Positions 108 to 31,850 of a stretch of 64,000 nucleotides of DNA are shown here, piece after piece. The position numbers and the translations under genes were made by a program. The DNA comes from Octopus vulgaris (taxonomy: Eukaryota). Location: assembly GCA_951406725.2 (NCBI GenBank), contig OX597816.1:90458001-90522000 (forward strand). Direction: 5' to 3'. Under the pieces are notes generated by a model. That model ran no database searches and was not told where the DNA came from. It saw only the letters and a program-made list of their open reading frames with translations. Within the stretch, counting starts at the first letter, position 1. Each line of letters starts with the position of its first letter.

Positions 108-259
108 CTTTCATCTCATTGAGAACACTTTGTACCATATAGATATCATTTGTTGCATATGCATCTAAAAACGTTTTTAAGTTGTCATGTTTAGGCTTGA
201 GAGAACGGTTTTCTTTTTTACTTTGCTCAACACGGACTTTTAAGTTACCATATTTTTCA
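108..259 (-). CDS. JmjC/cupin-like (Cupin_8-type) protein, second coding exon; gene continues beyond left edge
   Basis: Acceptor tttctatttcag at 260/261 and donor gtact at 107. The phase-2 join to the 7646 exon gives (G)EKYGNLKVRVEQSKKENRSLKPKHDNLKTFLDAYATNDIYMVQSVLNEMK, matching the YG..V.VE..KKENR...FL..Y...D.YMV pattern of invertebrate secreted JmjC proteins. Not in the ORF track. Confidence 0.8.
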
Positions 260-1027
260 CTGAAATAGAAAAAGAATATTACAATAATTAATTTAAATTC
301 CAAGATAGATAAATACTAATAAGTCTATATAGATACATGCGTGCATACTTGATGAGTTGTTATAGTGTCAAATAACAAGTACAATGTTAATTCATTTGAT
401 CTTTGAGTTAGGTTTGTAGCCAAAGAACATTGACTTAAAAAATAAAAAATAAAAAAAAGTAAAATTAGATATTGCCACACTCTGGCAGAACATATAATAC
501 CAAATATCAGCTTTGACAGTTGACAAGGATTTAGTTTTAAAACTTTGTTTAATATTTTGAAAAACAAATCAAATCACAGTTAAACAAATATCTAATTCAG
601 AAACACAACACATTAAGCCAGCTGGTGGGCTAGCACAGACTATTCATATTATTTAAAATCAGAACTCAAATTTTCAAATATCCAGCTGATGTCAACCTGA
701 ATTTCATCCATGATCAATTGATGTTATTTTTCTGACATTTTTTTAATTATTAATTGCCACAAAGATTATAACTGATTTACTGATTTTAAACAGATTTTAA
801 AAATTAATTAAACCTATGACGATGCATAATCTGTATAGAACATTTTAGTGGTCATTATATAATCTTGAAATCCCATGTGCATCATTTATCTTTTACTTGT
901 TTCAGCCATTGGACTATGGCCATACTGGGAAACTACATTGAAGGGTTTTGTTAAATGAATCAACCCCAATACTTCTTTTCTAAAACTTGGCACTTATTCT
1001 ATTGGTCTTTTTCGCCAAACCACCAAG

Positions 1028-1175: not shown

Positions 1176-1209
<34 letters not shown>

Positions 1210-3078: not shown

Positions 3079-3448
3079 TTACCTCTGCCTTAGTGAAGGC
3101 AGAGTTGTTGTTTTCAGTCATGTTTGTTTGCTTGTTTGTTTGTTTATCCATTGACAAGACATCTCAAGAACCGCTGGATGAATTCAGATTAAACTTTCAG
3201 AGATGTTTGGCCTCATAACTGATTAGATTTTGGGATCAATCTGGTACCGGACAAGGATTCTGAATTAGTTTTCCTGTTTTTTTTAACTTGATTTTTGAGA
3301 GCAATTGGGTTCGTTTTTAGTATTCTTGTCTGTAAGTGCAATAGAGTTTATTTCAGATATTCTCATTTTAAAAATCATCTCTGGCTAATCGTTGAGAAGA
3401 GTTTGGTGTTGCCTTGGCAGAGGTTTGTGCCCTCTGAGTGCTCTTGTT
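3079..3448 (+). mobile_element. Helentron-associated interspersed element (HINE/DINE-like)
   Basis: 5' subTIR ACCTCTGCC (3081) within the hairpin CTCTGCCTTagtgAAGGCAGAG, then a (GTTT)n microsatellite, a 3' subTIR GGCAGAGGT (3416-3424) and a short terminal hairpin. Flanks are T-rich. Confidence 0.7.
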
Positions 3449-4328
3449 ATTATTATTCTGCCAAAGTTGACTTTGCCTTTCATCTTTTTGGGATTGATAA
3501 AATAAGTACAAGCTGAACACTGGGGTTGATGTAATCAACTCAAATCAGCCCTCCCTCAAACATGCTGGCCTTGTGCTAAAATATGAAACCATTATTCATC
3601 ATCATCATTTAGCATCCATTGTCCATGCAGGCATGGGTTGGATGGTTTGACCAGGGCTGGCAAGCTGGAAGGCTACAATAGACTCCAGTCTGATTTGGCA
3701 TGGTTTCTACAGCTAACGCCAACCACTCTGAGAGTGTAATGGGTGCTTTTACATGCCACCAGCATGGGTGCCATTTGTGTGATATCAGTATCTGCCATGA
3801 CTGCGATTTTACTTGGTTTGATGGGCCTTCTTCTGAAGCATGACATAATGCCAAAGGTCTTGGTCATTGCCTCCATGGGGCCCAACACTCAAAAGGAGTG
3901 TTTCTTGTACCGCCGGCATCAGGTAATTTGCCTCCTTGCCTCTGTGAGGTGGCACAAAAGGTACTTTTTACATGCCACCAGCACAGGTGCTAGTTATATG
4001 ACACCAGCATCAGCCACAACTATGATTTCACTTGACTTGACAGGTTTCCTCAAGTACAGCATATCGCCAAAGGTCTCAGTCATTAGTCACTACCTCTGTG
4101 AGGCCCCAAGTTTGAAGATCATAAGGCAGTGAGTTGGCTGAATTGTTAGAATGTTGGGCAAAACACTTAGCGGTATTTCGTCGGTACTTTGTAAATATAA
4201 GTTTTTCTCAAAAATGCAAAGAGTAAAACATGTTTAATATGACACATTCTACCAGTGTACGAAGTTTGAAAGTGTTTAGTTACTAAAAATTATTTTTAAA
4301 ATCTGTAGGTCAAAAGGTAAAGATCCCA

Positions 4329-4485
4329 AAAATGTAGTAATATCCAACTAGTTTTCACTATTTAAATCAGCTTTTCAAGGGACATTCTGAAGTAATCATT
4401 CCTAGAGACAAAGGAATGATTACTTCAAAATGTCCTTGAAAAGCTAATTTAAATAGCAAAAACCGGTTGGATATTACTACATTTT
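4329..4485. repeat. Long palindrome/foldback (~75-bp arms, 8-nt loop)
   Basis: 4329-4403 versus the reverse complement of 4412-4485 differs by 6 transitions and 1 indel. The loop is agagacaa. Confidence 0.95.
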
Positions 4486-4685
4486 ATGAGACATTTATCA
4501 TTCATAATGTATGTATATATATTTTTTCATAAAAAGATATTAAAAGTATGTGAAATGAAGGTATTTCTCTTCCCCTTTTTATATATGTTTTCTACATATT
4601 TTCACTTCATAATTTTGCCAGGTGGTGTATATGGATCTCCAGCATTTTCCCTTCTTTTATATTCTCATATATATATATATATATA

Positions 4686-5270
4686 CGAGCAAAACACCCA
4701 ACCCGTCCAATGAACGGTACTGAGTTGTCAAACATTTAAACCAAAATCCGCATCTCCTCAATGACCAACATTCCTGTCACAGGCATGACATCATTGCACA
4801 TGTCTCCCATCTGAAGCTTCAAAAAATGATGGATTTGGTCAGGTACGCCCAGTTGTTTGGAGCAGTTCGTTGTTTCACATACAACATGGAATGGCAGAAG
4901 AGAGGCCTACTGCATGCCCACATCCTTCTGTGGCTAAAGGTCAGGCTTTTTTGGTCTCTTAAATATACTGCAATTTGTGGCATTATTTCAAGCCAGCCGA
5001 CTTTTTTTGCGCAAACTGCATGTGCATTTTTCTCACATACAAGTAGTATTGATTGCACAGCTGATGTACTTGCACGTACAAATGCACGTTCCTACAGCTT
5101 TATTGATCGCATTCTTACCTGGAATCGATTTTAGTAATTTTTTCAAGACTTATACATGCCCTGATATCGTCGGTATCTACATATCAAATTTGAGTGCAAT
5201 CGGATGGAGGATGCCCAAGATCTTAGAAGACACACACACAGACAGACAGAACAGATTTTATATAATAGAT
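4686..5270 (-). mobile_element. Non-autonomous Helitron carrying an inverted Rep-domain fragment
   Basis: Minus-strand 5' end atctattatataaaatctgttctgtctgtct at 5270. 3' hairpin CCGTcCAaTGaACGG (~4703-4717) followed by a CTRR-like end. The + strand 4780-4940 encodes RHDIIAHV...FGAVRCFTYNMEWQKRGLLHAHILLWLK (Rep HUH motif 2). Confidence 0.7.
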
Positions 5271-9491: not shown

Positions 9492-10772
9492 TCAGATCAT
9501 CCCATAAGTTCTGTCCGAATTTTGAATAAAGAAAACAAGTGATCAAATGTTATATTTAATTGAAATTTAATCATCAATGTACTTTCCCTGATTATCTATG
9601 ACTTCCTTCCATCTATCTACAAGCTTTTTAATCCCATTAATGTAAAACTCTTTTGGTTTCAAAGTGAAGAACTCTGAAATGTCAGTTTCGACATCCTGGC
9701 TTGTGAAAGTTATGTCCTCCAAATAATTCTGTAAACTACAAAACAAATGGTAGTTTGAAGGAGCAAGGTCGGGAGAATAAGGTGGATAAGGAATTTTTTC
9801 CAACCAAGCTCTTCGATCTTCTGTGATGTGATCTTTGCAGTGTGGGGTCACGCATTGTCCTGATGAAACATCACTCCTTTTTGATTCATTAAAGCAGGTC
9901 TTTTTTTCTTCAAAGCTTGGTTCAAACACTCTAATTGCTGACAGTAAACTTGAGCATTGATTGTTGCATTAGCTAGTAACAATTCAAAGTGAATTACTTC
10001 TTTGCAATCCCACCAGATAGAGAGAAGAACCTTTTTCCCATGAAGTTCCCGTCTCGGTTGTGGTTGAGCTTTTCCCCTTTTACCAAGCCACTGTTTACGA
10101 CATTTAACATTTCAATAGAAGATCCATTTTTCATCACCAGTCACAAGTCTATCCAAAAAGGGTGAATTAAGTTTGTGAGAAAGGAGAGAAGAGCAGATGT
10201 CAACTCGGGATTTGTGGTTGCTTTCAGACAATCCATGAGGCATCCATTTTCCAAGTTTGGGAACCTTTCCAAGTTGTTGAAGATGATGATGAACAGTTGT
10301 ATGGTTTGAACTAAGCTTTATTGCCAATTCTTCAACTGATAATGCAGGATTTTCTTTAAGTAATGCCCCAGGGAGCTTATCAAACTGAACTGGACGTCCT
10401 GTTTGATCTTCATCTTCAAGGCTGAAATTTCCACTTCTGAATTTTGCAAACCATCTTCTGCAAGTTCTTTCATTCAAGCATTATTTCCCATAAACTGAAT
10501 GTATATTTCGAGTTGCTTTGGCTGCAGAGTTTCCTTTTTTGTACTCATAAAGCATTATGTGCCTCAAATGCTCTTTGGATACTTCCATATTAGAAAAGGT
10601 TTTAATCAATGAAATTTTAATTCTATTATTCTGTAAAATAATATTTAATTAGTTTAAATGTACACAAATGCATAAAAATAGTTTTTAATTCCATTAGACT
10701 TTCTAAAATACTATTAAATGTCATTCAATTTTAAAAAAGGTAAAATTGGACAGAACTTATGGGATGACCTGA
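9492..10772 (-). mobile_element. Full-length mariner (DD34D) transposon with pseudogenised transposase
   Basis: 25-bp TIRs tcagatcatcccataagttctgtcc / ggacagaacttatgggatgacctga with TA TSDs at 9490-91 and 10773-74. The transposase at 10588->9567 has W(M)PH.L, LVTGDEKW, HQDNA and PYSPDLAPS motifs, with stops and frameshifts. Confidence 0.95.
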
Positions 10773-12934
10773 TAATACTAATTTAACTGATGTGATGTTC
10801 CCTAGTATTAAAACATCAATATCAGTAAAGTATCCCATTCAATAATAGTATAGATTTCCCAGAAAGTTAATCATTTCTCAGAACCAGTTCATTCAATTTT
10901 TCCAGCTACTTCCTGTCCACTTATTACATATTCAAGAAAAATAAAATTAATCTTTTTAAAATGGGAGGGACTTGTTGCATTTCAAAAGCTTTCAACCCAA
11001 TTCTCATGCCCTATTCATGAGCTATTTCAAAGCCCTATTTTCAAACAACATTTCATGCTGGACTAATTATATTTTCATCCATACCAACTAACTTATTTCT
11101 TGAAGTTGTTTTCTAAGAGAAGATCAAAAGCAGTCAATATCAATCTACCTTGTAAATTTTAACTTCAGTAAAAAAAGGATAGTCTTGAAATTAGCTCTAA
11201 CTTAATCAGTTTCTTAGAAATAAATCTTTTTACTTTTTAGTGGTGTACCATGGGTACTTAAAGTGGGATGGATTTTAAAATCAGGTAAACTTATATGTAT
11301 GACTTGTTTTATAAAATTTATTCTGAAATAAACATCATCATCAACATTTTGCAGATACCTTTCATGACATTAACCCTCATCTGTTTCCAAGCAAGATAAG
11401 AATCTCCTGGTCTACTGAACAATGAACAGCCCAAACATGGTTACATGGAGAGCTGGAAACAAATGACACTGTTTCATTGTTTCTTTTATTCACAAAGATT
11501 GCAGAACATGTCAAAAAGCCCTGATATGCAAACTGTCTGTATGAATAGTCAGGCTTATATTTACAATCTGCAAATATGTGGAGACATGAGGGAAATATGA
11601 ACTCACTCTCACATAAAGTCATACACACACACATATATATATATATATAATAAGCCCATTATATATCTACTGTGTTTTTGTATTTGGTTTGCGGGATGTG
11701 AATTCATGTACTGAAACAAATCTTGTTTTGTCTTGGGAGGGTCATTATGCCAATAATAATAAACACATGCACTGGTTTAATATCACTTCTTTATTAGTTA
11801 GTCAATCAGTTAAATATCCAATCAACTATCTAATTGATCATTTGCTTGACCAATCTATCAATCTGCCTTGAGACTCAAGGCAGACCTTGAAGACAGAGAG
11901 AGCATGTCATTGATGAGATTGCAAATAGCGACCAAAGGACTTTCACAAACAAACAACTGACTGATTGATTAACCAATTCATCCCCGTGTTCGATTCAGGT
12001 AATGTGATGTTGGGAAGCCACAAAAATGGCAAAATATCGGCATCCATCACACCAGAATTTGATTGGAGGTGAGTTATCTCACCTGTCTAGACTTTCAGGT
12101 GTTTTAGCACCCAGCATAAAGAAGGAGTCTTCCCCTAGGTGCTATACTGTAGCAAACAAACTAAATGTATACATTGAGTATGTGTGGTCAATAATATATA
12201 TATATATGGATCAAAACAGTTTGATTCAAGTTCATTGGTACTCCAAGTTTCAAGCGTGATGCTAATCTTCAGCCATTCAAGTTCATTCTTGAAACTCGGA
12301 GTACCAATGAATTGAATCAACCTGTTTTGACCCAAACATGTAACTCCCAATAAATTTGTTGAGTGCCCTTCTTTTGTCCACTCACTTGTGCATTTATATA
12401 TATATATTTTATATATACACACACATTAAATCAAGAAACTGCTACACAATTTAATGTCTACTTTTCCATACTCACATTGGTCAGATGGTATTTCTCGAGG
12501 CAGATTTTCTGAGGCCTGATACTATTGCCAATAATTATGTTTCCAAACATCAAAATATTTTTTTCTGGCCAATATGATGCTCATCTATAATCATCTTTTG
12601 ATTTCAAGACATAAGTATGGACAGGCATACACACATATTGAGCCTTCTTTCAGTTTTTATCAACCACATCCACTCACATTGCTATGCAGTGGGATTGACA
12701 CTGAGACCACACAGTTGGGAAGCAAGCTTCTTAGCCACATCATCACCTCACATGCTTGAGGTGAATTTTCTTTCTACAAAGAAAATTTCAATTTTTCCCA
12801 TTCTTGATTTTTGAGTTTGAAACCTAACCTTTTTACACCTCATGGCAATTGGATAACATTACATTTTGGATGAATTCTATAAATTAGTTTGCTTAGTCCT
12901 GCTATATATCACAATGTCACTATATCACTAAAGA

Positions 12935-13168
12935 TAAGGCGGCGAGCTGGCAGAATCGTTAGCATGCTGGGCAAAATGCGTAGCCATATTTCGTCTGCCA
13001 ATACGTTCTGAGTTCAAATTCCGCCGAGGTCGACTTTGCCTTTCATCCTTTCGGGGTCGATAAATTAAGTACCAGTTACACACTGGAGTCGATGTAATCA
13101 ACTTAATTCGTTTGTCTGTCCTTGTTTGTCCCCTCTGTGTTTAGCCCCTTGTGGGTAGTAAAGAAATA
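12935..13168 (+). mobile_element. Young full-length SINE with 14-bp TSD
   Basis: CpG-rich copy aaggcggcgagctggcagaatcgttagc...gtaaagaaata, flanked by tatatcactaaaga at 12921-12934 and 13169-13182. Confidence 0.9.
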
Positions 13169-16100
13169 TATATCACTAAAGACTAATGTTTCCATGTAAT
13201 GATTTCAAGAGGGATACATAAAACTGCTCTCTTGTCCTCTGACTCATAATTCAGAGAACAAAACAAATGAAAGATGTTTTGCAAAGGTATGATTCACTTA
13301 TCACTTACTGGTAAACTCTATCTATGCATAACACAAACCAATAAGGATGTTTTTTATGTGTTTGTTTGACCAGTCTGAAATTGCAGTAAAATTCTCAGAA
13401 ATCACACTCTACCAACATTGGATAAAATAGTCTGGGGTTGAACAACAACCGATTTACAGTTAAGCAAAATGAATCTAACAAGAATATTCTTGACTATAGA
13501 CACAGACAGTGCAGGGGTGGTGTAAAGATGTGAATAATTAACATGACCAGTAAAACAATATTTTATCAACTTGACCAACTGCAACTGTACATTATGTAGC
13601 TAAGTTCATTAAGATAAAAACTTGCTTTAGAAAAATTAACTACTTAACACTTATTTTTTTAACAGATTAGTCATAGGAGGAAGGCAGCATCTATGATCCT
13701 TTCCAAGGTTTTCATGATTGGTGGATAGAAGTTATCTTTAGATTGGGAATCTAGCCACTAATGGCTCCTAAATGGCAGCCAGTGGTATTTTTATGTTAAA
13801 AACAAGTAGGTACAGCTTGGTTTATCATCATCATCGTCATCATCAGCATGATTTAAAGTCCACCTTCCATGCTGGCATGGGCTGGATGGTTTGACTGGAT
13901 CCAGTGATCTACAGGGCTGCATAGTTCTCCATGTCAGCTTTGGCATGGTTTCTACAGCTGGATGCTCTTCATAATGCCAACCCAGTGAGTACAGGGTGCT
14001 TTTTTTGTGCTACCAGCACTAGTGGGATTGACAAGTAACTTGCAAGATGGAAAAGGACAAGAAAAAGAGAAGAGGGAAAAGGCCCCTCCCGATTAATTGG
14101 TGATGGCCAAGGGTATTTTAGAAAGAGGAGAGATGATTCTTTTTATGTCAGGGGCAAGCAGGCGTCTTGCTATACAGAAGATACAGAGCAACCCCACATT
14201 ATATAAGGATAGATGAAAGTATCAGGGACAAAATTAAGCTGGTAGTCATGGGGTGCTAAAACAAAGACTTTGTCATTGTTATAAATTACAAATAGGTTAT
14301 TTAATTGCAAATTAAATAAATTAATTTATTTAATTTTTACATAATGGCTTTGTAGATGTACAGCATAAACTTAGTGGATAATGAATATATGCTGATGATT
14401 TATAGTGTTTTGATAGCATAAGAGTTTAATACCTAAACCAACAAATAAACACTAGAGACCTGTGACTAGATAACTCATTCATATCAGTGACTTGCAGTAG
14501 GACTTCTGTTACTGGATATACATGTGGAAATTCACAAATATCCATAAAGAAACAATTTTTAATATGAGATGGATTGAACAGACTCACTCTGGTCACCTGA
14601 GTATGTGCATGTATACAGCTATTATTGAATCACAATAATACAATATTACATATAATTTATGTAACATTCAACAATTAACAGCCGATAATAATGCATTGAA
14701 ACTATTGTAGCAATTTTTAATGAAGCCTGTTCAATCCATCTTCTCATTAATATATATATATATAAAGATGGATGAATAGGAGAAATAGTGAAAAATATAT
14801 AACAGCCAACAATATATGTATATTATTTAAGGAGTAGACAATTCAGGATCACATAGCCTATAAAATTCTAACTCAATAGTGTTTCAACTCATTCTAATAT
14901 ACACTACATATTGTTCCTTGTGTAATTTCATGTATAAACTGATGACCTCTCATATGTAGTTGAAAAATCTTACCACTGGGTTGAAAATTTTATTTATGGC
15001 TTCTTTAGTTGTTAGTAATCCTGCCCTCATGGATAATGTCTGTCTATATTTTTCATATTCAAATTCATCTATAGTATTTATTGTAAAATTTGTCAAATAT
15101 TTTCTTAATCATTTTAAACAGGACCAGAAAGTAAACCAATAGCCATAAATTTAAATCTTTACTTCTTTATTAGCCTATGTATATATCTGACAGTCCAGTT
15201 CTTCCTTTTTTTTTCCTATAAAAAAGGACATAATTCTGCTAATCTAATTCATTCTTATGACTAACCTCAGGCACCTATTCCTGAAATATTACAAGTAATC
15301 TCTTCTAGTCTTGACCTTTTCATTTACTATTTTATACACTCCTTTGGATACAGTACTGAGGTCTTAATTCTTCACCATCAGGATTTCTTTGCGGCACGCG
15401 TGTATCTCAATTTACAAATTCCAGGAGCTTAAAATAAAGATCAGCTAACTTGATCTTTCTTTCGTTAGAAAGATGTTTCAAAAGTGATTCTGGGGGAGGT
15501 TAAATGGTAATTGACTTAGAATGGATCTACGTCACGTAATTTTAAAGGAAAGAATGTTAAATACGGATGATTTGTCTGGTGTTGATGTAATATAACTGAA
15601 TCAAAATAATGTGTTTTGTTGGTTTTTAATATAATATTTAATAATGGGGTATGTTATGCAAAATAAAAAGCTTTGAAATTTTTTTTAATCGAAAATATTA
15701 GAGCTCCAGTTACTATTTTTATTTAATCTTTGTAATTTTTACGACACTATTTCGATTTTTAAATTAGAAATGAATCTTTTCTTCACTAGCAGATGGTTAA
15801 CAAAATTTACCAATTATTCTAAGACTATATTCGAAATGAATTACATTATCAACGTAAAAAATTGTGATTAACTTCAAAAACTGTTATTTATTTTAAGTGG
15901 TTAGCTATTAATAGTAATATTTCATAGTAAATCGCAATTACTAGAAAATGAATGCAAATTCTTACGTTAATATTTGTAATGCAACCCCGAGGATCCTAAC
16001 AGTTGAAATTGACCTATTATCAATCAAAGTATAGTTATCATTCTAATGTTTTGGTAACTAACATACATTTTTTTGCTTTAATTTCAAACATCCCTGTCCA

Positions 16101-16639
16101 ACTAAACTTCAGTAAAACAATTAGTGCATTAATCGTACATTGATAATATCAAAGACAATATGTTGATAAACTGTTTGCTTTTTAAACGACCAGTAAAATG
16201 TCGAAATCACCTGGTACCTAATGACATAATCACTCCCCTCCACAAATAAAAATGCTTAGTTTAGGTGAGCGTAAGAACCACACTGAAATGTAGCAATAAT
16301 TTGATTCTTTATTAATTTGGGCAGATGTTTACACTGGATTAACCGTGCTGGTTAAAGTTAGCAGTGTGGAGTTACCGCTCTCTTCTTCAATGTTTATCTT
16401 CTCACCATCACACACTATCGTCACCTTTCATACTCCAAAATGCACTTAACTCGTTTAGCATGCTATTCCCAAATTAAACTCATTCATGATTATTTTAATA
16501 CCACACCGAAAATGGAAAAAAAAATAGAAATAAAAACCCCATTTAGAAAGGCACGTTTTTATCTGCAGATATATATATAAAATTATTATATATTTCTCAT
16601 TACTACTATTTCTATTAGACTATAATAGTGATTACTGCA

Positions 16640-17060
16640 AACATTATTTACCTTTACTGATGCGCAATAAAATCTTGAAGCGAACGTGTTAATTGACAAT
16701 TGTTTTCTTTTCTCACTTGCAAGAGTTTTATTTATTTATTATTTATTATTAAAAGACTTGCAGCCTGAATCAGTATTTCCCAGCTTCGTCTCTACTCCCT
16801 CCCCTCCCCTCCCCACCGGCCTTCACCTCCCTCCCTCCCTCCCTCTCTCTCTCTCAACAGTTCGACGACGACGCAATGAATGACGGTATATTTCATACTA
16901 CCATTCATCGTCACGTGATTCTTCACATCAACATTCTTCTGTTGTGATCTATCTCAAAACGGGAAAACTTCTTTCCATCAGCTTTATATTAATTACAACT
17001 TGTATATGTTTTCCACTTTGTGCCAATGTATCCGTAAATTCAAGTTGACATGGTGAGTAT
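16640..17060. promoter_or_regulatory. Probable bidirectional promoter and first non-coding exons of the JmjC (-) and ZNF (+) genes
   Basis: Repeat-free, CpG-enriched stretch. It has a polypyrimidine/G4-type tract at 16795-16855, an E-box GTCACGTGA at 16910-16918, a + strand donor ATG|GTGAGT at 17053 and a - strand donor AAAG|GTAAAT at 16651. Confidence 0.5.
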
Positions 17061-20000
17061 TTTAGTTAAAAGTTGCGTACTTGGGATATTAAGCACATAT
17101 TTCTCTCACACATATCGTTGTCATATCTAATGGCGCAGAGAAAGCTTCTCATAAAATATAGTTAAACGCAACTAATATCTCCTTTCCCCCTTCCTGGATG
17201 ATGTTAATATGTTAAGCTACTGTCATAAATATATGTAATAACTTTTCAAATAAATTTACGTTTTATAGATATCTATTAATCTGGTTGAATTAGTTTTGTA
17301 GTTGTTACTTTTTTTTTAAATTTCACAACTACTTCAGAGTGTTTTTTTTGTTTTTGCTTGTTTTATTTTTTAAATTACAAATTGAATTTAGTTCATCCTT
17401 AACTTTGATCTTGCATCTAAAATACAGTAAGATAATTATCTTTCTGGTATTTTTTTTAGCGTGTATAAAGAATTTAATGTGTCTGAACAAATCTAAAAAT
17501 TAAAGTTATTTATTATAATTTCTCATTAATTCAATTAAAATATGATTTTAAAATATGCAATTCCGTTTCTTAACCAGATATATTACATATATATGTTATA
17601 CTGATATGATCAACTAATTCTCTGAAACCATTTTCATTAAAGTTTTATATGAAGTTCATCTTAGGCATTTCATTAGTGTTGTCTGGCAACTAAAAAAAAT
17701 CAAACCTAATAATTAAAATATGAGAAACATTTCGTGAAGTGAATTATATATATAAAAAAAAAGATAAATAAAAAAGAAAACCCCATCATGGCAATATATG
17801 TATGTAGTGCATAATTTACAATCCGTCCATTATTTTGAAGTAATATTGTATGTGGTCTGGCACATACCATACTGTTTGATATGCAGTTTTATCATATGGT
17901 TTCATATTCTCCATACATCATGCAACTTTTAGATATAACTTCTGGGTGGCTTAATTTGCCCTGACTCCTCTACAAACTGACTTTTGGTCAGACAAACTAT
18001 TCTAAGTACAAGCTGTTACAGACAGTAGATTTATTTCATTTAACTCATAAAATGTGAAAATATATTGCTATATTATTTTGTTAACTTGTTGCACTATTTA
18101 ACTGAAAATAAATTCTTAAAATTGCTTTTTGGGGGGGGATTAGTATTCATTATTTCATCAAAATAACTCAATGGAACATATCACTAGAGACTTTCTCAAA
18201 AATATGATAGATCAATAATATACTTAAGGTAGTTTGATGAAAGACTAACACAATAATATTGAATTCTGAAGGAAAATCCTGCTACTATCTATGCTTTATT
18301 AATATTGACTTATACTTTTAGCTCATCTGTATTAGTTTTTGTGTGGCTACATTAAAGTATCTTGGGGCTTATGTCCATTTTCACTTTCTGATTTCAGAGA
18401 TTAGGCCCTTCAAGCAAAAACTGAAATAGGTTTGTTCATGTGAAAAACAAATTTTACATTAATATTTAATTTTATTGAACAAAAAAGATTAAGAATACTT
18501 GTGAATCCTTATGAATATCTGAGTAATTTAAACCAGTGTAATGTAATATTAATGTGAAAACAATATTTAGCAAAAAGTGTGAGAATGAAAGAAATAAAGG
18601 GATTAGGAGTAATCTATTTATAGAAAAAGACTAAAGATAATATACAAATATACAGTGAAAGAAATAGTGACAATAGATTCTTAAACAGGTTAAAAATTAG
18701 AACTAAAGTGGTCAGTTATTTTAGATGGTTAAATAAATATGCATAAAAAAATCATTGATTGGACAGTTTAAAATGACCACTTACATAATGTCATATAAAT
18801 GGAATAGAAAAGATTATCCCAAATGGATACCATTGAAATAGCATGTGTATATATAGCAAACAATAAAGCTACCTTTGGATATAGCTTAAAATATGTGAAG
18901 AGGTACATGCTGACTAAGAGAAGAATTTGTAATGGACGATGACCTAGGAACAATTCCTGAATAATGTCTGACGTGTGTCATTACAATGAAGGCAGGAGTA
19001 ATATTGCTGTAACAGTCTAAAATGAAATATTGAAGGTCATAAAATAAATAACTTGATACAGTCTTGTATTTCTGAAGAATCACAGGTGTGTTTTTTGTCT
19101 GCTTTATTCTTTGTGAGTGTTATTGGAATATTTATTTTTACAATATATCTTTACTGATCTTTTATCATGAAGTAGAAATTATTATTTTGTAGCCATGTTA
19201 ACAAATAACCTTATATAATTATCTTGCTATAGGATATAATATTTAAGACCTCATAAACTCAGTTATAAAATACAAATACATTATTCTTTTCAACTTTCAA
19301 ACCACATGTTCAATATCTAAAAATCAGAAATCCATTCCATCTTACTTTTCATGTTATCTTCTCAAAGTATAAAAATGTTTAGATAGCATTAGTTGTTTAG
19401 TCTTCAGATATGTTTGCTTCCATTCAACCATATTTGGCTGTTCCTATGCAATTTTTATTCTTTGGTATTGTGTTTTGGAAACTTTGTATAGTTTTGTTAT
19501 TGATAGTGCTTATAACATTCTTTATATGCAGTTCGCTTTATGTTTGTCAAACCCATGCCAGCATAGAACATGGACTTTAAAATGATGATTCTTTTGATAT
19601 TCTCTTAGTAACACTATTAGCAATAGCTTCACTATCAAAAGAATTTGAGATTTAAGTGGCTAAAAAAATTGAACAAATTATGACATGATCTATGGTTACA
19701 TGCTGTCCCAAATACAAGGACATCATCATCATTTAGTTCTGTTTTCCATGCTACTTTGGGTAAAGTGGTTTGACTGGAGCGGGAGAGCTGTACTGGGTGT
19801 CAATCTGTTTTGGCTTGGATTTTATGGCTGGATGCCCTTTCTAATACCAACCATTCCACTGAGTGTACTGGGTGTCATTTACATGTCATTGGCACAGCTG
19901 CCTTTCACATGTCATCGGCACTGGTCGTGACTACAATTTCACTTTGCTTGATGTGTCTTCTCAAGCACAGCAAATCATCAAAAGTCTCAGTTACTTATTG

Positions 20001-22875: not shown

Positions 22876-23367
22876 CTTTTTCAAAGATGACACTGTTCAT
22901 GTAGCTATCTTCTTGACAGAATGTTGACATTTTATTTTTAAGCTTGGTGGAATGTTATGATTATTATAGAAATTCCCTTCAACATGTATATGAAGTATGT
23001 TACAGGGACTGGGATTACTTTATATGTATTGATACTTACTGAAAGTTTGTAGTCTTATGAGTCAAGATATTTGTGCATAAAAGGCTCGTGGGAGCAACAA
23101 GCATTTGGTTTGCCAAATGCACTTGAATATTAATTTGGATGAGCAGAAGAGCATGGATGATTACAAACTCCGTAAATAGATTTCTGGAGTAGTGAACAAG
23201 TTCTATTGTTTCATTGATAATTCTGTATGTAGGTAGGATTACGAAATATTAATTTTTTTTTTGTTATGAGATTGAACTGGTATTATTTCTTGTATTTTTA
23301 CTTTACAGAATGATGCTGAAACTTACATCATGTTCATATCTGAATGCACCAAAATGATTTGTAATTA

Positions 23368-26300
23368 ATGAATATTTTGAAGAAAATGGAGTCAATGGAT
23401 ACTAATGATTCACCTTCAATACTTGAGTCACCACTGATGCAATTAGCGAATGCTAGTGCTTCTGCTGTAAGAGCTGATCTGCCGACTGAAGAAACCCCTA
23501 AAGACCAGCCACGTGTGTACACCAATGAGGCATTTTCAAGTGAGGATAATACCTTGGCAAAAGAGAATAATATATCTAATGTTTACTGCACTCAACAACT
23601 TGATCAAAAGGAATGTCTCCTGAATTCTCATCAAATGGAGTCTAATAAGGAAATGGAATTAGTATCTACTGATAGTTTTGAAAGTAAATTATCAAACTTT
23701 CAAGTAGATGCACAACCAAACATTATTTCTCATAATTGCTGTGTTACTACAGCTAAAAATTCCTCTTTCAGTCAACCAGATTTAAAAAAATGCAATAACA
23801 AAGATATGATATGGGATTCACAACACTTACTGTACACACCACAAATTCAGGACAATAATGACAATTTTTTCCCATCGTCAAATTGTGATTCAGAACAATC
23901 TAAAAAAAATTCCACTTCTAGTGATGATAATTCATCTTTTGAATCTAAAAATAATTTAAATTCATTGGCAGGAAAAATAACTTTATTACCAAAAAAATGT
24001 ATAAAACCTTTTAACAATATAAGTGATACTTTTGATAAAATATCTAATAAGGAGGAAATATCTTACAACAAACAGGATCAGTCATTAAGTAGTGACTGTC
24101 AACTTGAATCTTCTGAGATAAATACTTTTGTAGAACCAATATCCATTCCTAATAATGACAATGTTAAGGCATGTTCTAAAAAGTCTGCATCACCTGAGGC
24201 TTCAATTGAGCAAAATAGATCCCCAAATTTCAAAAACGATTTTGATTCTTCACTTAAGGAGCTGCAACGAGTTTCTAATTTTCAAGTTTTGTCTAGTAAA
24301 GAAGAAACTCATGAAAGAAATTTAAAGACTTTTGTAGAGTTGCCTCCAGAAAGTGAAAGCAAAAACATTGCTGAAAAAAGTACTGGTGAGGAAGTATTTT
24401 TAGTACATGAAAAAAATTTGACAGTTTTAGCTCCTGATAAATTATCTAAAGTAACAGAAGAAAATACTTCTGATCATTTGCTTGATGAGGGCAGAACTCT
24501 CTCAAAATCACCAACTGAAGAGGCTTCCAGTTTTGTTACTGCTGATACGTCTAAAACAGATGAAACTTCATTACCAATTACCAGTTTTACTATGAATAAT
24601 GATGTAGCCCATAAACAAGTTCCAGATGAGGTGTTGACAGATATAAAAAAGAAAGCAAATACTCCTGAATTAACTTCCAAAATTGAAGCGGATAAAGATA
24701 ACGTAAACACGGTTTATTCTCTTAATAAGTCCTCTGAAACTGATCAAGATGATAAAAACATTACTTCATCTCCTGCAAGAGCCACTATTTCTGAGACTGA
24801 ATCCAGTAATGTTTCTAAAAGGCCACGCAGAAATATCAAGGCAAAGCGCATATTTTCTGCATCATTAAATGATGCTAATTCAGCCAATCAAAATGAAAAG
24901 AGAAATGTTAAAGAGTCAAGAAAAGAATCTCTGTGCTTAAAAAAAAAAAAATTACTTTCTGCAAAGAAGAAGTTGAATCTATCAAAAAAATTACATGTTG
25001 AGGAAGATGAAGATATTGCAGAGCAAAAAAATGCTCAAATTAAATCATCTAATTATTTTAAAACTGATCAATCAGTTCCAGTAGTTTTTACTTCCAGTCA
25101 CTCTTCCATATCTTCAAATCCTTTAGATACTGTTGGCATGAAAACAGTTTCAAGTAAAGCAAAAAATTTATTAATAGTTCCTAAATCCACATTTACTGTG
25201 AGTTCTCCTGATGAAAACCAATCAATCAATAAATGTTTAACCAAAAATCGAAATAGTAAACCAAAATCTGTTACAAAAGAGAAAAGTTCTTTACATACAA
25301 ATGTTGGAAAAGAAGCAACAAAGAATGGTGAAAATAAGTCTTCTTTCACTAAAATTAATAAAAATAGCAGTAAAAGAGTCCTTTCAGAAATAGCTTCGAC
25401 GTCTTTTGATAATAAAGTCACAAGTGATTCATTTTTAAATAGTAGTATTTCTTCAAACTTTTCAAAACCTGATGAAACTGAATGTAGTATAATTTTACCT
25501 TCCAACATGCCTATTACTTCCTCTAATCTTGCTACTTCATTTCACAATGAAGATGTAAGTCTCAGTATTACTGAAATTGAGAATTACATTAAAAAAGAGC
25601 CCACAGACATCTCTGAGTTGAATGAGTCAGCAAGTTCTAAAGTTTATGATAGCAAAACTGAATCAGTCTCTAATGCTTCCAGTTTGGTTGGTGAAACTCA
25701 TGAAATAAGGAAATTGCTTAATGCTAGTTCAAATGCTACTCAGTTAATTAGCACAAATTCATCAGGCTCATCAACAACAATTTCCAATGCACAACCTCTT
25801 GGTTCTGTGAAAATTAGTCCCGTATCCCCTTATGCAATATTTTTACCAGTTTCTCTTCCTTCTGGTTCAACTGTCCCTACTACTGCATCAATATCGTCAA
25901 ACAGCTTTCAGTTAAAAGTTCCAAATGTTCTTAGAAAAGAAAAACCTTTGTTACCAAATGATAGTATAATCTGTAAGAAGTCAGATGGTACAGGTCAGTT
26001 GGCCAACAATTCAAAACAGAAAAAATTTAGCAGAACTAATCTTATTCCTGCATATTTTCCTGCTCCTTTACCTAAATCTCTAATAGATAAGATAACTGTT
26101 AGTTATCATTCATGTGCTGAGTGTGGTGATACTTTTTTATTTAAGTCAAGTTTACATATTCATAAGACTCGTAAATGCATGCAAATAACTTATAACTGTG
26201 ACAATTGTACAACGAAGCTTATTTTTTATAATAAGTGCTCTGTGCTGGAGCATGTCCGTTCGCATTATCCATCTCAGCCAGTTACTATTAAACTTGATAA

Positions 26301-28362
26301 AATGGACATTGTTCCACTACCTGAAAGTATAACTGACATTCTTGAAATAGGGGACTGTGAACAAATACCAGTACACAAGACAACAGAAGAGAGCAATAAC
26401 TTCGATTGCATTGAATGTGGTGCCAAGTTCCATACCGCTCGTGCTTTAGCTAACCATTTTGGACATTCAGAAACTGCTTGTACTTTTACTTACTACTGTG
26501 CTCTGTGTCAAACTTATTTACCTAGACATTGTGCACAGAAGGCACATCGACGTATCCATCATGAAAAAACACCACATGTTTGTCCAGAATGTGGACAGTT
26601 AATACCTAACCTTGTATCTTTCAGGCATCATTTAAAATATAAATGTGTTCATTTTTCCCGTATTGCACCACTTACATGTCCTAAGTGCTTTGCAAAATTT
26701 TGCTACAGTCCAGAATTAAAAGATCATATTATTTCTATACACAGTGAGACTTTTATCAAATGTTCAATTTGTCCAATGGCTTTTAAAGCCAAATCTTTTT
26801 ATCAAAACCACCACCAAAGCATACATTTATCTGAACAAGAACAAAAAAAGGAAATTTACAAGTGCCCATTGTGTGATACAGTTTTTCATAATATCCAACA
26901 ATTAATGAATCATGTTGATGTTCACATAAATGACTTAAAAGTTGGTGTTGATTATGCTTTCCGATGTTCTGTTTGTTCGGTTATATTTGATAGACGCTCA
27001 CTTTTGTTGTCTCATCTTGGAAATTGTCATCATCTTGATTTTATGCAACATAGGTGTGAATTTTGTGACTGTGTTTGCAAAACAGCCCATAATCTCCAAA
27101 CCCATCAGAAAGCAATCCATAAAATTGAAATGTCAAAAATTAATAGCAAAAATGAAGCAAAAACGGAAAATGAGGCTATAAAATCTAAAAAATGTAAGGA
27201 TAAAGGTATTGCATATTGTTCTTTATGTCAAATATTTTTTGCCACTGAAGGTCAACTGCAAATGCATTCATCAAAGGTTCATGAAAGTAAACTTAATGAT
27301 TCTTCTGCAGTTACTACAAGAACTCGAAATACACAAAAATTTTGCCAATACTGTAGTGCTCCCTATAAATCTTGGAATCGTCTCATGCAGCATATTTTAG
27401 GACATCGGCAGTCAGGAGTTTATATGTGTCTTATGTGTACAAATGCTGCTTTTCTTACAAAAGAAGATCTCCATAAGCATGAGGAATTTTGTAGTGGAGA
27501 ATCTAGTCAAGGAAAGTTACCAACTGTGTTTGAATGCAAAGAATGTCATGAGCTTTTCAAGCAAGAGAACTGGTTAATAGCACATCAGAAAAATATCCAT
27601 TCAAAGAAACCCATGTTCCCTTGTCATTTATGTAACTTAGTGTGTAAATCAAATGACTCCTTAGTTAAGCATATACAAATATCACATGAAAAGAAAAAGC
27701 ATTTTTATTCATGTCAAATTTGTAAAGAAACGAACAAGGAAAAGATATTCAGACGTCGGATCCAACTTGAAAAACATATAATTTCTAAACATAAAACGCT
27801 TCGTAATAAAAGCAATAATTCTAAAATAGCGCTTCAACCAAATGTAGCTAAGCAATCTACAGAAACTGACAATAAGGAGCAAGCACATGGTATTAATGTG
27901 GATAACCAACCCATAAAGAAATTAAAAACACAAGAAGAAACTTTTTCCTGTGTTAAATGTGTGTTTACCACTAAAGATCATAACCTGTTTCAAATTCATA
28001 CACAAGAGCACAAAAGAGTCAGTGATGGCATCAGGTGCAGTGAATGTGGATTGTGTTTTACTGCAGTTGATTCACTTCGGATGCATTTGTTTATGATTCA
28101 TAAAATAAAACAAACAAATGAATTTTTGAGCAGTCATGGTTTGCTTTATAAAAAAAATAAACTTAAAACAGAAAATGCTTTAGAAAGTTCTCCACAACAG
28201 TTAAGTAATATAGAAAATAATGCAACTGAACAAGCTCAATCTTTTGAATGCAATGTATGTTACAAAGTGTTTGAAAGCGAACATCTCCTTAAAATACATT
28301 TGCGAACTCATGGAATGGCATTTATTCGTTCAAAACGTCTCAACTTAACTGAAACAACATAA
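23368..28362 (+). CDS. ZNF532: C2H2 zinc-finger protein of the ZNF532/ZNF592/ZNF687 family (1664 aa, single coding exon)
   Basis: Long Ser/Lys-rich disordered N-half followed by many C2H2 fingers. Family-diagnostic blocks: CAECGDTF...YNCDNCTTKLIFYNKCSVLEHVRSH, HRRIHHEKTPHVCPECG, LKYKCVHFSR, KCSICPMAFK, IYKCPLCDTVF, CSECGLCFT...LRMHLFMIHK and terminal HLRTHGMAFIRSKR. Acceptor ctttacag at 23308. The symbol denotes the family co-orthologue. Confidence 0.93.
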   Translation: MNILKKMESMDTNDSPSILESPLMQLANASASAVRADLPTEETPKDQPRVYTNEAFSSEDNTLAKENNISNVYCTQQLDQKECLLNSHQMESNKEMELVSTDSFESKLSNFQVDAQPNIISHNCCVTTAKNSSFSQPDLKKCNNKDMIWDSQHLLYTPQIQDNNDNFFPSSNCDSEQSKKNSTSSDDNSSFESKNNLNSLAGKITLLPKKCIKPFNNISDTFDKISNKEEISYNKQDQSLSSDCQLESSEINTFVEPISIPNNDNVKACSKKSASPEASIEQNRSPNFKNDFDSSLKELQRVSNFQVLSSKEETHERNLKTFVELPPESESKNIAEKSTGEEVFLVHEKNLTVLAPDKLSKVTEENTSDHLLDEGRTLSKSPTEEASSFVTADTSKTDETSLPITSFTMNNDVAHKQVPDEVLTDIKKKANTPELTSKIEADKDNVNTVYSLNKSSETDQDDKNITSSPARATISETESSNVSKRPRRNIKAKRIFSASLNDANSANQNEKRNVKESRKESLCLKKKKLLSAKKKLNLSKKLHVEEDEDIAEQKNAQIKSSNYFKTDQSVPVVFTSSHSSISSNPLDTVGMKTVSSKAKNLLIVPKSTFTVSSPDENQSINKCLTKNRNSKPKSVTKEKSSLHTNVGKEATKNGENKSSFTKINKNSSKRVLSEIASTSFDNKVTSDSFLNSSISSNFSKPDETECSIILPSNMPITSSNLATSFHNEDVSLSITEIENYIKKEPTDISELNESASSKVYDSKTESVSNASSLVGETHEIRKLLNASSNATQLISTNSSGSSTTISNAQPLGSVKISPVSPYAIFLPVSLPSGSTVPTTASISSNSFQLKVPNVLRKEKPLLPNDSIICKKSDGTGQLANNSKQKKFSRTNLIPAYFPAPLPKSLIDKITVSYHSCAECGDTFLFKSSLHIHKTRKCMQITYNCDNCTTKLIFYNKCSVLEHVRSHYPSQPVTIKLDKMDIVPLPESITDILEIGDCEQIPVHKTTEESNNFDCIECGAKFHTARALANHFGHSETACTFTYYCALCQTYLPRHCAQKAHRRIHHEKTPHVCPECGQLIPNLVSFRHHLKYKCVHFSRIAPLTCPKCFAKFCYSPELKDHIISIHSETFIKCSICPMAFKAKSFYQNHHQSIHLSEQEQKKEIYKCPLCDTVFHNIQQLMNHVDVHINDLKVGVDYAFRCSVCSVIFDRRSLLLSHLGNCHHLDFMQHRCEFCDCVCKTAHNLQTHQKAIHKIEMSKINSKNEAKTENEAIKSKKCKDKGIAYCSLCQIFFATEGQLQMHSSKVHESKLNDSSAVTTRTRNTQKFCQYCSAPYKSWNRLMQHILGHRQSGVYMCLMCTNAAFLTKEDLHKHEEFCSGESSQGKLPTVFECKECHELFKQENWLIAHQKNIHSKKPMFPCHLCNLVCKSNDSLVKHIQISHEKKKHFYSCQICKETNKEKIFRRRIQLEKHIISKHKTLRNKSNNSKIALQPNVAKQSTETDNKEQAHGINVDNQPIKKLKTQEETFSCVKCVFTTKDHNLFQIHTQEHKRVSDGIRCSECGLCFTAVDSLRMHLFMIHKIKQTNEFLSSHGLLYKKNKLKTENALESSPQQLSNIENNATEQAQSFECNVCYKVFESEHLLKIHLRTHGMAFIRSKRLNLTETT

Positions 28363-29714: not shown

Positions 29715-29907
29715 TTAAAAAGGCGACCACTTCTCTCTGTAGGATAAAGTTGAGATAATAGACAGAGAACACCACTGGAAAATACAAAAACTAAAAGAGG
29801 CAGCACATATCCTGGGACTTAATAACCTCCTAAGCTGACCTAGTGTAGATATGAGTAGCATATGGAAACCGGTATTAAGGAAGGATAGAAAAATATTAGA
29901 TTTATAA
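29715..29907 (+). mobile_element. Penelope-like element 3' end (GIY-YIG endonuclease C-terminus, Poseidon-like), degenerate
   Basis: The frame from 29719 reads KGDHFSL*DKVEIIDREHHWKIQKLKEAAHILGLNNLLS*PSVDMSSIWKPVLRKDR. This matches the H..W..V.IID.E..W..RK.KEA..I......L.R......IW.P.L pattern, with stops at the expected W and R codons. Confidence 0.7.
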
Positions 29908-29936
29908 GCCCTAAAATTCACTCCATAATTGCCCAC

Positions 29937-30005
29937 AGGCATATGGCGTAGTGGTTAAGAGCACAGGCTACTAACCCCAAGATTCGAAGTTCGATTCCAG
30001 GCAGT
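29937..30005 (+). mobile_element. tRNA-derived Pol III promoter cassette (SINE head / tRNA pseudogene)
   Basis: A box TGGCGTAGTGG at 29944-29954 and B box GTTCGATTCC at 29989-29998. There is an anticodon-like loop ggCTACTAAcc but no intact acceptor stem. Confidence 0.75.
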
Positions 30006-30067
30006 GAATAATAATAATATCGAAAAAATATCTTAAGAATGAGAACCCAGGTTCGAAATTCCCCCAG

Positions 30068-30113
30068 GACACCTGACGACTGCTGGAGAGTACATCAGCT
30101 GAAACGTTATGTT
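30068..30113 (+). ncRNA. Type I minimal hammerhead ribozyme motif (degenerate copy)
   Basis: gacac-CTGACGA-ct-gctgg(agagtaca)tcagc-t-GAAA-cg-TT-atgtt. Both core boxes, helix II, the palindromic ACGT helix III and helix I (gacac/atgtt, one mismatch) are present. Confidence 0.65.
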
Positions 30114-31029
30114 AACAATAAACAAGATGAGGGCAAATATCTGTCAAAGTCAACTAAAATGGGGAAAAAAATATATAAATGCAGGTGTGGCCAATTGGTT
30201 AAGAAGTTGTCTTCTCAATAACGTAGGGTAAATTGGGCAGGTGCCTTCAACTATAGCCCCATGCTGACCAAAGAATTGTGGTAGAAACTGAAAATAGCTT
30301 ATTGTGTGTGTGTGTATATATATATATATAATCTTTTAGCTTTTACATGTTTCAGTCATTAGACTGTGGCCATCCTGCAGCACTGCTTTGATGAATTTTA
30401 ATCAATACCAGTACTTTTTTTTTCAAGCTGGGTACTTATTCTATTGGTCTTTTTGTTAAATCACCAAGTTACAGGGACCTAAACAAACCAACACTGGTTG
30501 TCAAGTAGTGGGACATACACATATGTATGATGGGCTTCTTTCATTTTCTGTTTGCCAAATCTGCTCACAGGGCTTTGATTAGCCCAAGGCTGTAGAGTAG
30601 AAGACATTTGTCCAAGGTGCCACAGATTGGGACAAAGCCTGAAACCATGTGGTTGGGAAGCAAGCTTTCTACTACACAGCCATTCTTGTGCCTATAAATT
30701 GTTTACTTATTTTAGTCATTGGACTACAGTTGTGCTGGGGCTCCACGTTGAAGGGTTTAGTCAAACAGATCAACCCCAGTTCTTACTTTTAAAGTCTTTT
30801 GCCAAACTGCTAAGATACAGGGATGTAAACAAACCAACACTGGTTGTCAAGCAGTGGTTGGGGCCAAACACAATACAGACACCACACTCACACACACATA
30901 CAAGCACAAGCATGTGTATCATGAACTTTCGGTTCCCATCTACCAAATCCATTCACAATTTCACAAGGCTGTGGTTGGCCAGGACTATAGTAGAAGACAC
31001 TTGCCCAAGGTGCCAGTATATATATATAT

Positions 31030-31850
31030 ACCTAGGTGACCAAGTCAGTAGCGGGGGCAGGTGTGCTGAAAGTATAACTGCTAGAGTAAGAATAACCTGG
31101 GCAAAGTTTAGAGAGTTCTTACCCCTGCTGGTGACAAAAGGCCTCTCGCTCAAAGTAAAAGGCAGACTGTATGATGCATGTGTACGTACAGCCATGCTAC
31201 ATGGTAGTGAAACTTGGGCTGTGACTGCTGAGGATTTGCGTAAGCTCGCAAGAAATGAAGCTACAGCTGTAGAAACACTGCCAGATCTGACTGGGCCTGA
31301 TGAAGCCTTCCAGCTTCACAGACCCCAGTTGAACCGTCCAACCCATGCTAGCATGGAGAACGGACGCTAAATGATGATGATGACACATATTGTTTCTAGA
31401 ATAAGTATTGGGTAGAGGAAGTTTAGAGAGCTATTACCTGTGTTGGCAACAAAAGGCCTCTCTCTCAGAATGAAATGTAGACTATAATGCTTTTGTACCA
31501 ACGGCTATACTCCATGGGAGTGAGGCATGGGCTCTGAATGCTGAAGACATGCATAGACTGGACAGAAATGAAGGTAGTATGCTCCGTTGGATGTGCACAT
31601 GTACGACAAAGTGAAAATGTTTTGAGAAAAAAGTTGGGCATAAGAGGAATCAAATGTAGCATGCAGGAGGGAAGACTTTGTTGGTTTGGACATTTGATGC
31701 ATATGAATAAAGAAGTGCTGATCTCTGAAAGTGGATGGTACCAATGCAAGAGGGAGACCCGGGAAGAAGTGGTAAGGACTGATCTCAGCAAGTTGGACCT
31801 CATGGAGGAAGTGACCATGGACCAAGATGTTTGGCAATAAGAAGTGCTAG
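31030..31850 (+). mobile_element. Two RTE-clade LINE RT C-terminal fragments
   Basis: LGDQVSSGGRCAESITARVRITWAKFREFLPLL...KGRLYDACVRTAMLHGSETW, and a second copy with LGIRGIKCSMQEGRLCWFGHLMHM. Confidence 0.85.

What the first reader, a model, noticed from the sequence alone, without database searches (positions are those of the whole stretch)
29715..30150. Penelope endonuclease end + tRNA-like Pol III promoter + hammerhead ribozyme in one cassette
Seen: within 450 bp, all on +, a decayed GIY-YIG C-terminus ends at 29907. A tRNA-derived A/B-box cassette follows (29944-29998), then a second B-box-like GGTTCGAAAT (30050-30059) and a type I minimal hammerhead (30068-30113). Known: Penelope-like elements carry minimal hammerheads in their pLTRs, and the schistosome Sm-alpha repeat combines a tRNA-like Pol III promoter with a hammerhead. 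Inference: this Penelope family may have a Pol III promoter built into its pLTR. It could then generate self-cleaving, possibly circular, SINE/retrozyme-like RNAs mobilised by the PLE RT. I am not aware of such a system being characterised in cephalopods. This copy is decayed and probably inactive.
Basis: partly seen in the sequence, partly recalled or inferred. Interest (0 to 1): 0.8.

Follow-up and report, generated by a model that had tools for sequence, protein, structure and literature searches.

The report
Penelope retrotransposon with a tRNA promoter
This is a dead copy of an abundant jumping-gene family whose repeat unit starts with a tRNA-derived promoter; most copies begin at that promoter as short SINE-like insertions, and the 2.6-kb protein-coding unit lacks polymerase III stop signals, so this protein-coding retrotransposon is likely transcribed by RNA polymerase III, which has not been tested.

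Summary
The cassette is real but decayed. It is the 3' end of a Penelope-like retrotransposon (PLE) with roughly 10,000-18,000 segments in this genome. The tRNA-like head is a fixed part of the element, not a chance SINE. The unit is: head, (AAT)n, start codon, hammerhead inside the first codons, an 835-codon RT plus endonuclease frame, 16 nt, head again. The 'second B-box' lies in codons 4-7 and fails the consensus.

Copy starts pile up at the head. Exact 20-mer counts rise from 1,038 to 5,148 across it, and 52 of 60 position-ordered copies start there. 16 of 38 short copies have target-site duplications, and they end at Penelope tails, not at the ribozyme cut. So most copies are a SINE-like form, likely moved by the Penelope protein.

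The family's majority sequence has no TTTT on its sense strand. All 17 near-full-length control PLEs have some. Best reading: Pol III likely transcribes the short RNAs and probably the mRNA. Transcription and cleavage are untested, and nothing supports circular RNA. The scan noted this arrangement twice before on other DNA; my ten literature searches did not find it described.

The parts
29717..29907 (+). 5'-truncated end of the PLE ORF (C-terminus of the GIY-YIG region), two internal stops, natural stop at 29905-29907
29908..29929 (+). Short spacer after the stop; an imperfect inverted copy of the start of the head
   Evidence: sequence; family majority
29930..29941 (+). Near-palindrome holding the inferred transcription start (about 29931, 13 nt before the A box); upstream limit of most copies and centre of fold-back inversions
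29937..30008 (+). tRNA-derived head; A box 29944-29954, B box 29989-29998
30007..30019 (+). (AAT)n tract, very variable in length between copies and a site of insertions by other repeats
30039..30148 (+). First 37 codons of the PLE ORF, repeated in the 3' pLTR; includes the B-box-like 30050-30059
30068..30113 (+). Minimal type I hammerhead, predicted cut after 30108; helices I and II damaged in this copy
   Evidence: features from PMC4209133
30114..30148 (+). 3' end of the copy, stopping just short of the first Penelope tail site; no target-site duplication found for this copy

Best explanation
The window holds a decayed, 5'-truncated copy of a Penelope-type retrotransposon whose terminal repeat begins with a tRNA-derived A/B-box head, and RNA polymerase III likely starts transcription about 13 nt before the A box in both terminal repeats. 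Shown: the anatomy; that most copies start at the head; that short copies carry target-site duplications, 5' inversions and Penelope tails; and that the majority sense strand has no TTTT. Inferred step 1 (about 0.8): transcripts from a 3' repeat or a solo head run about 280 nt and are copied by the element's own RT-endonuclease, which would start at the internal tail sites as shown in vitro for Anolis Poseidon. This gives over ten thousand SINE-like insertions. Inferred step 2 (about 0.5): from a 5' repeat the same promoter makes the uncapped 2.9-kb coding RNA, which would explain the loss of T-runs. Inferred step 3 (about 0.5): the 5' palindrome lets finished cDNA fold back and prime the inverted segment. 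The hammerhead is inherited PLE equipment and does not set the copy ends.
For: Unit structure: RVT_1, E 2e-10; 35% identity to an 836-aa Anolis protein. Step at the head in whole-genome exact 20-mer counts: 813 at -142, 1,038 at -43, 5,148 at +30, 7,482 at +108, with similar retention per word (0.29-0.46). In 60 loci taken in positional order, 52 start at -25..+19, 33 at -6..+3, none at -12..-7, and 5 reach the endonuclease. In 56 hammerhead-selected loci, 35 start at the head, 5 run upstream and 16 are shorter. Exact TSDs of 9 nt or more: 16 of 38 short copies against 7 of 1,406 mismatched pairs. 70 of 90 segment ends fall at two tail sites about 32 nt apart. T-runs: 0 in 2,656 nt against 2.9-5.2 expected (P 0.028-0.002). 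53 control PLE ORFs show 466 observed against 423 expected, and all 17 near-full-length ones have 1-29 runs. TT observed/expected is 0.79 against 0.85-1.34. None of 39 control hammerhead-like cores has a tRNA-like head upstream. ORF-bearing copies L121, L138, L468 and L404 start at the head.
Against: No transcription data: the RNA-seq is unstranded, 67-72% of laid reads run on into host sequence, and no pile of starts is seen. Raw-read depth over the head (about 1,060) is only modestly above the endonuclease end (about 700-800), and summed contig depth shows no step there (the tool says these depths are not copy numbers). G-runs of 4 or more are also absent (expected 1.0-3.8) and A-runs of 5 or more are scarce (7 vs 13.2, P 0.007), so some run avoidance is general. 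The T test uses a majority sequence against single-copy controls from unknown hosts, some near-duplicates. Only 3 of 58 ORF-continuing copies reach the head, and two others (L127, L148) are tandems that run further upstream, so the full-length start rests on 4 copies. How an uncapped RNA would be translated is unexplained.
Confidence: 0.62

Rival explanations
1. Pol III makes only the short SINE-like RNAs. The coding RNA comes from Pol II, either a pLTR promoter as in Drosophila virilis Penelope or host read-through, and the missing T-runs are chance or A-rich composition.
For: Characterised PLEs use an internal pLTR promoter with a 5'-UTR intron (PMC8557442, passages). Tandem copies exist. 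G4 and A5 runs are also low. The most conservative null gives only P 0.028.
Against: Control PLEs show no T-run deficit, and the 15 with similarly low T content predict 5.1 runs (Poisson P 0.006). Only about 100 nt of non-coding DNA, mostly the head, precedes the ATG. Four ORF-bearing copies start at the head.
Confidence: 0.22
2. The head is a dead SINE remnant captured in the pLTR. Copies end there because reverse transcriptase stalls or folds back at the small palindrome, not because transcription starts there.
For: The boundary coincides with the palindrome. 42 of 60 copies have an adjacent inversion, some centred on it. The cloverleaf is lost.
Against: The hairpin is only 4-5 bp with a 2-nt loop. 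About 85-90% of copies reaching it stop, whereas counts fall only 1.28-fold over the next 99 nt upstream. Both boxes keep consensus and spacing while the stems have decayed. It does not explain the T-run loss.
Confidence: 0.1
3. One reading: Pol III transcripts self-cleave at the hammerhead, circularise and are inserted as retrozyme-like units.
For: A well-formed minimal hammerhead in the majority sequence. Circular intermediates have been proposed for PLEs (PMC4209133).
Against: No 3' segment ends at the cut site (0 of 90). Only 3 of 97 tail-junction loci start within 2 nt of it, one explained by fold-back. No arrays of complete units in 60 loci. Subfamilies with altered core or 10.1 positions still amplified. 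In Anolis Poseidon, hammerhead mutants insert normally in vitro (PMC11167929).
Confidence: 0.05
4. A SINE inserted by chance into this one decayed Penelope copy.
For: The host genome is rich in SINE-like repeats.
Against: The same junction is found in all 29 other loci and in full-length and tandem copies.
Confidence: 0.01

Closest known systems
Penelope/Poseidon-clade PLEs (Anolis PAc, PMC11167929, parts 1-2 of 4 read; D. virilis Penelope via passages of PMC8557442)
   Same: Single RT plus C-terminal endonuclease ORF, pLTRs, hammerhead overlapping the ORF start, 30-40 nt tail with two ends, 5' truncations and inversions.
   Different: The pLTR starts with a tRNA-derived A/B-box head; most copies start there; the coding strand has no TTTT. 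No such head upstream of 39 control hammerhead-like cores.
tRNA-derived SINEs, including the octopus OK/OR1/OR2 families (1994 paper seen only as a reference entry; OR2 is a CORE SINE according to PMC4758252, passages)
   Same: tRNA head with A and B boxes, 250-280 nt, TSDs of about 12-14 nt, high copy number.
   Different: Body and tail are the Penelope pLTR, not a LINE tail; no 3' simple-repeat tail; frequent 5' inversions; the head is shared with the autonomous partner. I could not test whether the short form is already catalogued as OR1 or in Repbase/Dfam.
Schistosome Sm-alpha/Sj-alpha (passages in PMC6765202, PMC2770079)
   Same: tRNA-type Pol III promoter followed by a type I hammerhead in a short repeat.
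   Different: Sm-alpha is described as tandem and released by cleavage, with a canonical ribozyme. Here copies are dispersed, uncleaved at their ends, carry a minimal ribozyme and are part of a coding PLE.
Animal non-LTR retrozymes (PMC7229834, passages; bioRxiv 10.64898/2026.07.22.740005, part 1 of 5 and term search)
   Same: Short non-coding units derived from or related to pLTRs, presumed to be moved by PLEs.
   Different: Retrozymes are tandem arrays that yield circular RNA. The preprint's main text has no occurrence of tRNA, Pol III, promoter or octopus.
TRIMp3 elements Cassandra, Helenus, Ajax (PMC10886601, passages)
   Same: Small-RNA-derived Pol III promoter inside a terminal repeat.
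   Different: Those are non-autonomous LTR elements, and the paper argues that their autonomous partners must use Pol II. Here the autonomous element itself carries the head.

Membership tests
Endonuclease-bearing Penelope-like element | Single ORF with a PLE-type RT | tested here: met
   835-codon open frame in the majority sequence; RVT_1 over cut-off in a real copy; 57% identity to P0001
Endonuclease-bearing Penelope-like element | C-terminal GIY-YIG domain | tested here: inconclusive
   Pfam GIY-YIG is not hit in decayed pieces, nor in P0001 or P0014, but is hit in homolog P0043. The region aligns with the Anolis protein's C-terminus.
Endonuclease-bearing Penelope-like element | pLTRs from partial tandem, 5' truncation, adjacent inverted copy | tested here: met
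   inversions in 42 of 60
Endonuclease-bearing Penelope-like element | Optional 30-40 nt tail | tested here: met
   70 of 90 ends at two sites about 32 nt apart
Endonuclease-bearing Penelope-like element | Minimal type I hammerhead in the pLTR | tested here: met
   Descriptor and fold in the majority sequence; cleavage itself not testable here
Endonuclease-bearing Penelope-like element | Pol II internal promoter with 5'-UTR intron (seen in D. virilis Penelope and Chlamys-3) | not tested
   No intron search made; only about 100 nt of non-coding DNA precedes the ATG
tRNA-derived SINE (short form) | tRNA-related head with A and B boxes at the 5' end | tested here: met
tRNA-derived SINE (short form) | Short, non-coding, dispersed, with TSDs | tested here: met
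   holds only the first ~50 codons of the ORF
tRNA-derived SINE (short form) | Transcribed by Pol III | not testable with these tools
   RNA-seq uninformative
tRNA-derived SINE (short form) | 3' end borrowed from a LINE, ending in a simple repeat or poly(A) | tested here: not met
   The 3' part is the Penelope pLTR and tail
Non-LTR retrozyme / Sm-alpha type | Head-to-tail arrays of complete ribozyme units | tested here: not met
   None in 60 one-kb loci; partial duplications only
Non-LTR retrozyme / Sm-alpha type | Unit ends set by ribozyme cleavage | tested here: not met
Non-LTR retrozyme / Sm-alpha type | Abundant circular RNA | not testable with these tools
   Library type unsuited; no such joint among those shown

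The most novel reading that the evidence does not exclude
An autonomous, protein-coding retrotransposon transcribed entirely by RNA polymerase III. A Penelope lineage replaced its promoter with a tRNA-derived one, purged TTTT from 2.65 kb of coding strand, translates an uncapped RNA, and from the same promoter spawns its own SINE, a tRNA-headed SINE moved by Penelope machinery instead of a LINE.
Probability: 0.45. Interest if true: 0.9.

Novelty: new variant of a known kind. Interest (0 to 1): 0.74.

Why it matters
SINEs are held to depend on LINEs, and autonomous retroelements on Pol II (as stated in PMC10886601, passages). The short form here is a tRNA-headed element with Penelope ends and insertion marks, at over ten thousand segments. 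If the T-run loss reflects Pol III transcription of the ORF, it would be a natural Pol III mRNA encoding an 835-aa enzyme, which raises the question of how it is translated. The sharp 5' boundary also gives a defined template start. That makes the long-unexplained PLE 5' inversions and the role of the pLTR hammerhead directly testable.

Tried and rejected
Rfam found neither tRNA nor hammerhead in the window or in near-majority copies; ARAGORN found nothing in the window or 23 loci. Single-strand folds of the window copy are no better than shuffles (z 0.13, -0.73, -1.12). Pfam missed four short decayed frames. No RNA holder was listed in the run index. Three raw RNA runs and one contig run showed presence only: unstranded, no start or end piles. 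Contigs of four further coded organisms (B-E) cover the endonuclease end, head, hammerhead and ORF start, but no listed piece spans the whole stretch. A search for other Penelope families in this genome with the Anolis protein returned only this family in all 30 loci fetched, so there is no same-host control. Viral contigs gave no relative. A peak of 5' ends at the hammerhead cut was looked for and not found convincingly. 'Second B-box as promoter element' was rejected as coding and non-consensus, though not disproved. Look-ups of earlier notes by sequence and by place returned nothing. No tree was built, for want of labelled clade references.

Full report
OBSERVATION. The frame 29722-29907 has two internal stops and matches the C-terminus of PLE protein P0001 at 53% over 57 aa. 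A box 29944-29954 and B box 29989-29998 are 45 nt apart. The family head aligns to tRNA genes of this genome far better than shuffles or ORF tiles: best tRNA-Arg(TCG), z 7.5, among 25 distinct tRNA sequences from 30 loci, which are not a full isotype set. ARAGORN and Rfam do not call a tRNA or a hammerhead. The hammerhead of the family majority has a 5-bp helix I, a 6-bp helix II, an extra base before G10.1 and a palindromic 15.2-16.2 pair, the features listed in PMC4209133 (parts 1-2 of 4 read). In the window copy these helices are damaged. The copy is 87% identical to the majority sequence.

THE ELEMENT. The cassette had 7,559 first-look candidates in the 2.8-Gb genome. Longer copies run upstream into a Penelope RT. 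A majority sequence computed from the fetched copies (about 20 or more per position over the ORF) closes as a 2.65-kb unit. It consists of head, (AAT)n, ATG (window equivalent 30039), an open 835-codon ORF, stop, 16 nt, and head again. The hammerhead and the 'second B-box' lie within the first 27 codons, and the hammerhead-coded peptide is conserved in P0001. The nearest named homolog is an 836-aa Anolis carolinensis protein at 35%, probably Poseidon (inference). In PAc the hammerhead also overlaps the ORF start and RT initiates at two internal sites that define the tail (PMC11167929). L121 is a near-complete copy that starts at the head. L138, L468 and L404 start there too, while L127 and L148 are partial tandems.

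WHERE COPIES START. Numbering: +1 is window 29937. Whole-genome exact 20-mer counts were 813 at -142, 1,038 at -43, 5,148 at +30, 7,482 at +108, and 129 at the tail-to-ORF junction. Retention of these words in aligned copies is similar, 0.29-0.46. That implies about 2,300-3,100 segments at the stop codon, 11,000-18,000 heads and about 18,000 at the ORF start; inverted duplicates are counted too. The fivefold step lies across the head start, against 1.28-fold and 1.45-fold over flanking intervals of similar length. I fetched the first 62 of 5,148 listed head matches as 60 loci. 52 start at -25..+19, 33 of them at -6..+3, none at -12..-7, 5 reach the endonuclease and 3 start at +22..+30. Copies cut after +30 cannot enter this sample, and two pairs look like duplicates. 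Among 56 hammerhead-selected loci (58 non-self minus 2 dropped as repeats of other loci), 35 start at the head, 5 run upstream and 16 are shorter. The upstream limit, about 29931, is 13 nt before the A box, where Pol III normally starts (established knowledge).

SHORT COPIES ARE INDEPENDENT INSERTIONS WITH PLE MARKS. 48 of the 60 continue into the hammerhead and 42 have an adjacent 5' inverted segment. 70 of 90 segment ends fall at +236..247 or +268..275 and none at the cut site, +185. 16 of 38 complete short copies have exact flanking repeats of 9-14 nt, against 7 of 1,406 mismatched pairs. Long and short copies share the main hammerhead sequence. The short form is therefore SINE-like in head, size and TSD, but Penelope in body, tail and inversion.

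POL III TERMINATORS. If Pol III transcribes the ORF, the sense strand should lack T-runs; I stated this prediction before testing it (note). The majority has no run of four T in 2,656 nt, and 30 runs of four A. Synonymous-codon nulls expect 2.9, 5.0 and 5.2 (P 0.028, 0.002, 0.002). Controls were 53 of 80 metagenome PLE loci, those with an open matching frame of 350 codons or more. They hold 466 runs against 423 expected; one 351-codon fragment has none; all 17 near-full-length ORFs have 1-29. TT observed/expected is 0.79, below all 53 controls (0.85-1.34). In real copies T-runs occur at 0.47 per kb, at no site in more than about 10% of copies. Against this reading: G4 runs are also absent and A5 runs are low. 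The controls come from other hosts and are not all independent, and a majority sequence is compared with single copies.

EXPRESSION. Three RNA runs of coded organism B hold many reads, but unstranded, mostly running on into host sequence, with no piles of starts or ends. Depth over the head is only about 1.4 times that over the endonuclease end. Contig depths in four organisms show no step at the head either; the tool warns that these are not copy numbers, and the reference used has a deletion in its head. Nothing here shows Pol III use or cleavage.

MECHANISM. Most likely Pol III initiates at the palindrome just before the tRNA-like head. From a 3' pLTR or solo head it makes a short RNA that holds the protein's internal RT start sites, so it is inserted efficiently and keeps its promoter. 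From a 5' pLTR it would read through the T-free ORF. Fold-back at the palindrome may prime the inverted segments. All three steps are inferred. The hammerhead does not define copy ends, in line with PAc, where catalytic mutants still insert in vitro.

COMPARISON AND NOVELTY. The element passes the PLE tests except that Pfam did not confirm the GIY-YIG domain. The short form fails the LINE-tail test for SINEs and the array and cleavage tests for retrozymes and Sm-alpha. Ten full-text searches listed no paper on a tRNA-headed PLE or a Pol III-transcribed autonomous retroelement. I read listings, and passages or parts of 11 papers; no supplements were opened. The 2026 O. vulgaris repeat annotation (PMC13282606, passages) counts Penelope families and 893 unclassified active SINE families without mentioning ribozymes; its library could hold this family. 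Repbase, Dfam and the 1994 octopus SINE paper could not be checked. Two earlier notes of this scan saw the same arrangement on other DNA; they are not independent support.

VERDICT. Real, decayed at this locus, and a new variant of a known kind at family level. Confidence is high for the anatomy and the SINE-like offshoot, and about even for Pol III transcription of the coding RNA.

Noticed in passing
window 23365-28362 (+): A 1,665-codon stop-to-stop frame with C2H2 zinc fingers, including a ZNF592-like finger. The Penelope copy lies 1.35 kb after its stop on the same strand and may sit in its 3' UTR.
   Followed up: partly
L063, L071, L073, L075, L128, L191, L203 ((AAT)n tract): The microsatellite between head and ATG expands to over 150 nt and repeatedly holds insertions of other repeats, separating head from hammerhead.
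   Followed up: no
L062-L090 and L186-L214: Two subfamilies carry shared hammerhead changes (core positions 4 and 7; position 10.1) that should weaken cleavage, yet each left about 30 or more copies. The second is absent from the positional sample.
   Followed up: partly
window 29908-29954: The spacer after the stop codon is an imperfect inverted copy of the head's first 20 nt, as if an old fold-back insertion became the pLTR junction.
   Followed up: partly
L385-L481: Copies that continue into the ORF often start at about +224, within a 9-nt repeated word before the tail (12 of 97 loci at +224); unexplained.
   Followed up: partly
window 30183-30260 (+): Another A-box-like, SINE-like start follows the copy directly.
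   Followed up: no
window 31030-31840 (+): Two decayed frames resembling the C-terminal end of an RTE-type LINE RT (label recalled).
   Followed up: no
L015, L017, L027, L092 (contig C17): Four 97-98% identical copies with shared flanks: a segmental duplication, not separate insertions.
   Followed up: partly
coded organisms A-E: The head, hammerhead and ORF start are held by runs of five coded organisms, so the family is shared across related species.
   Followed up: partly
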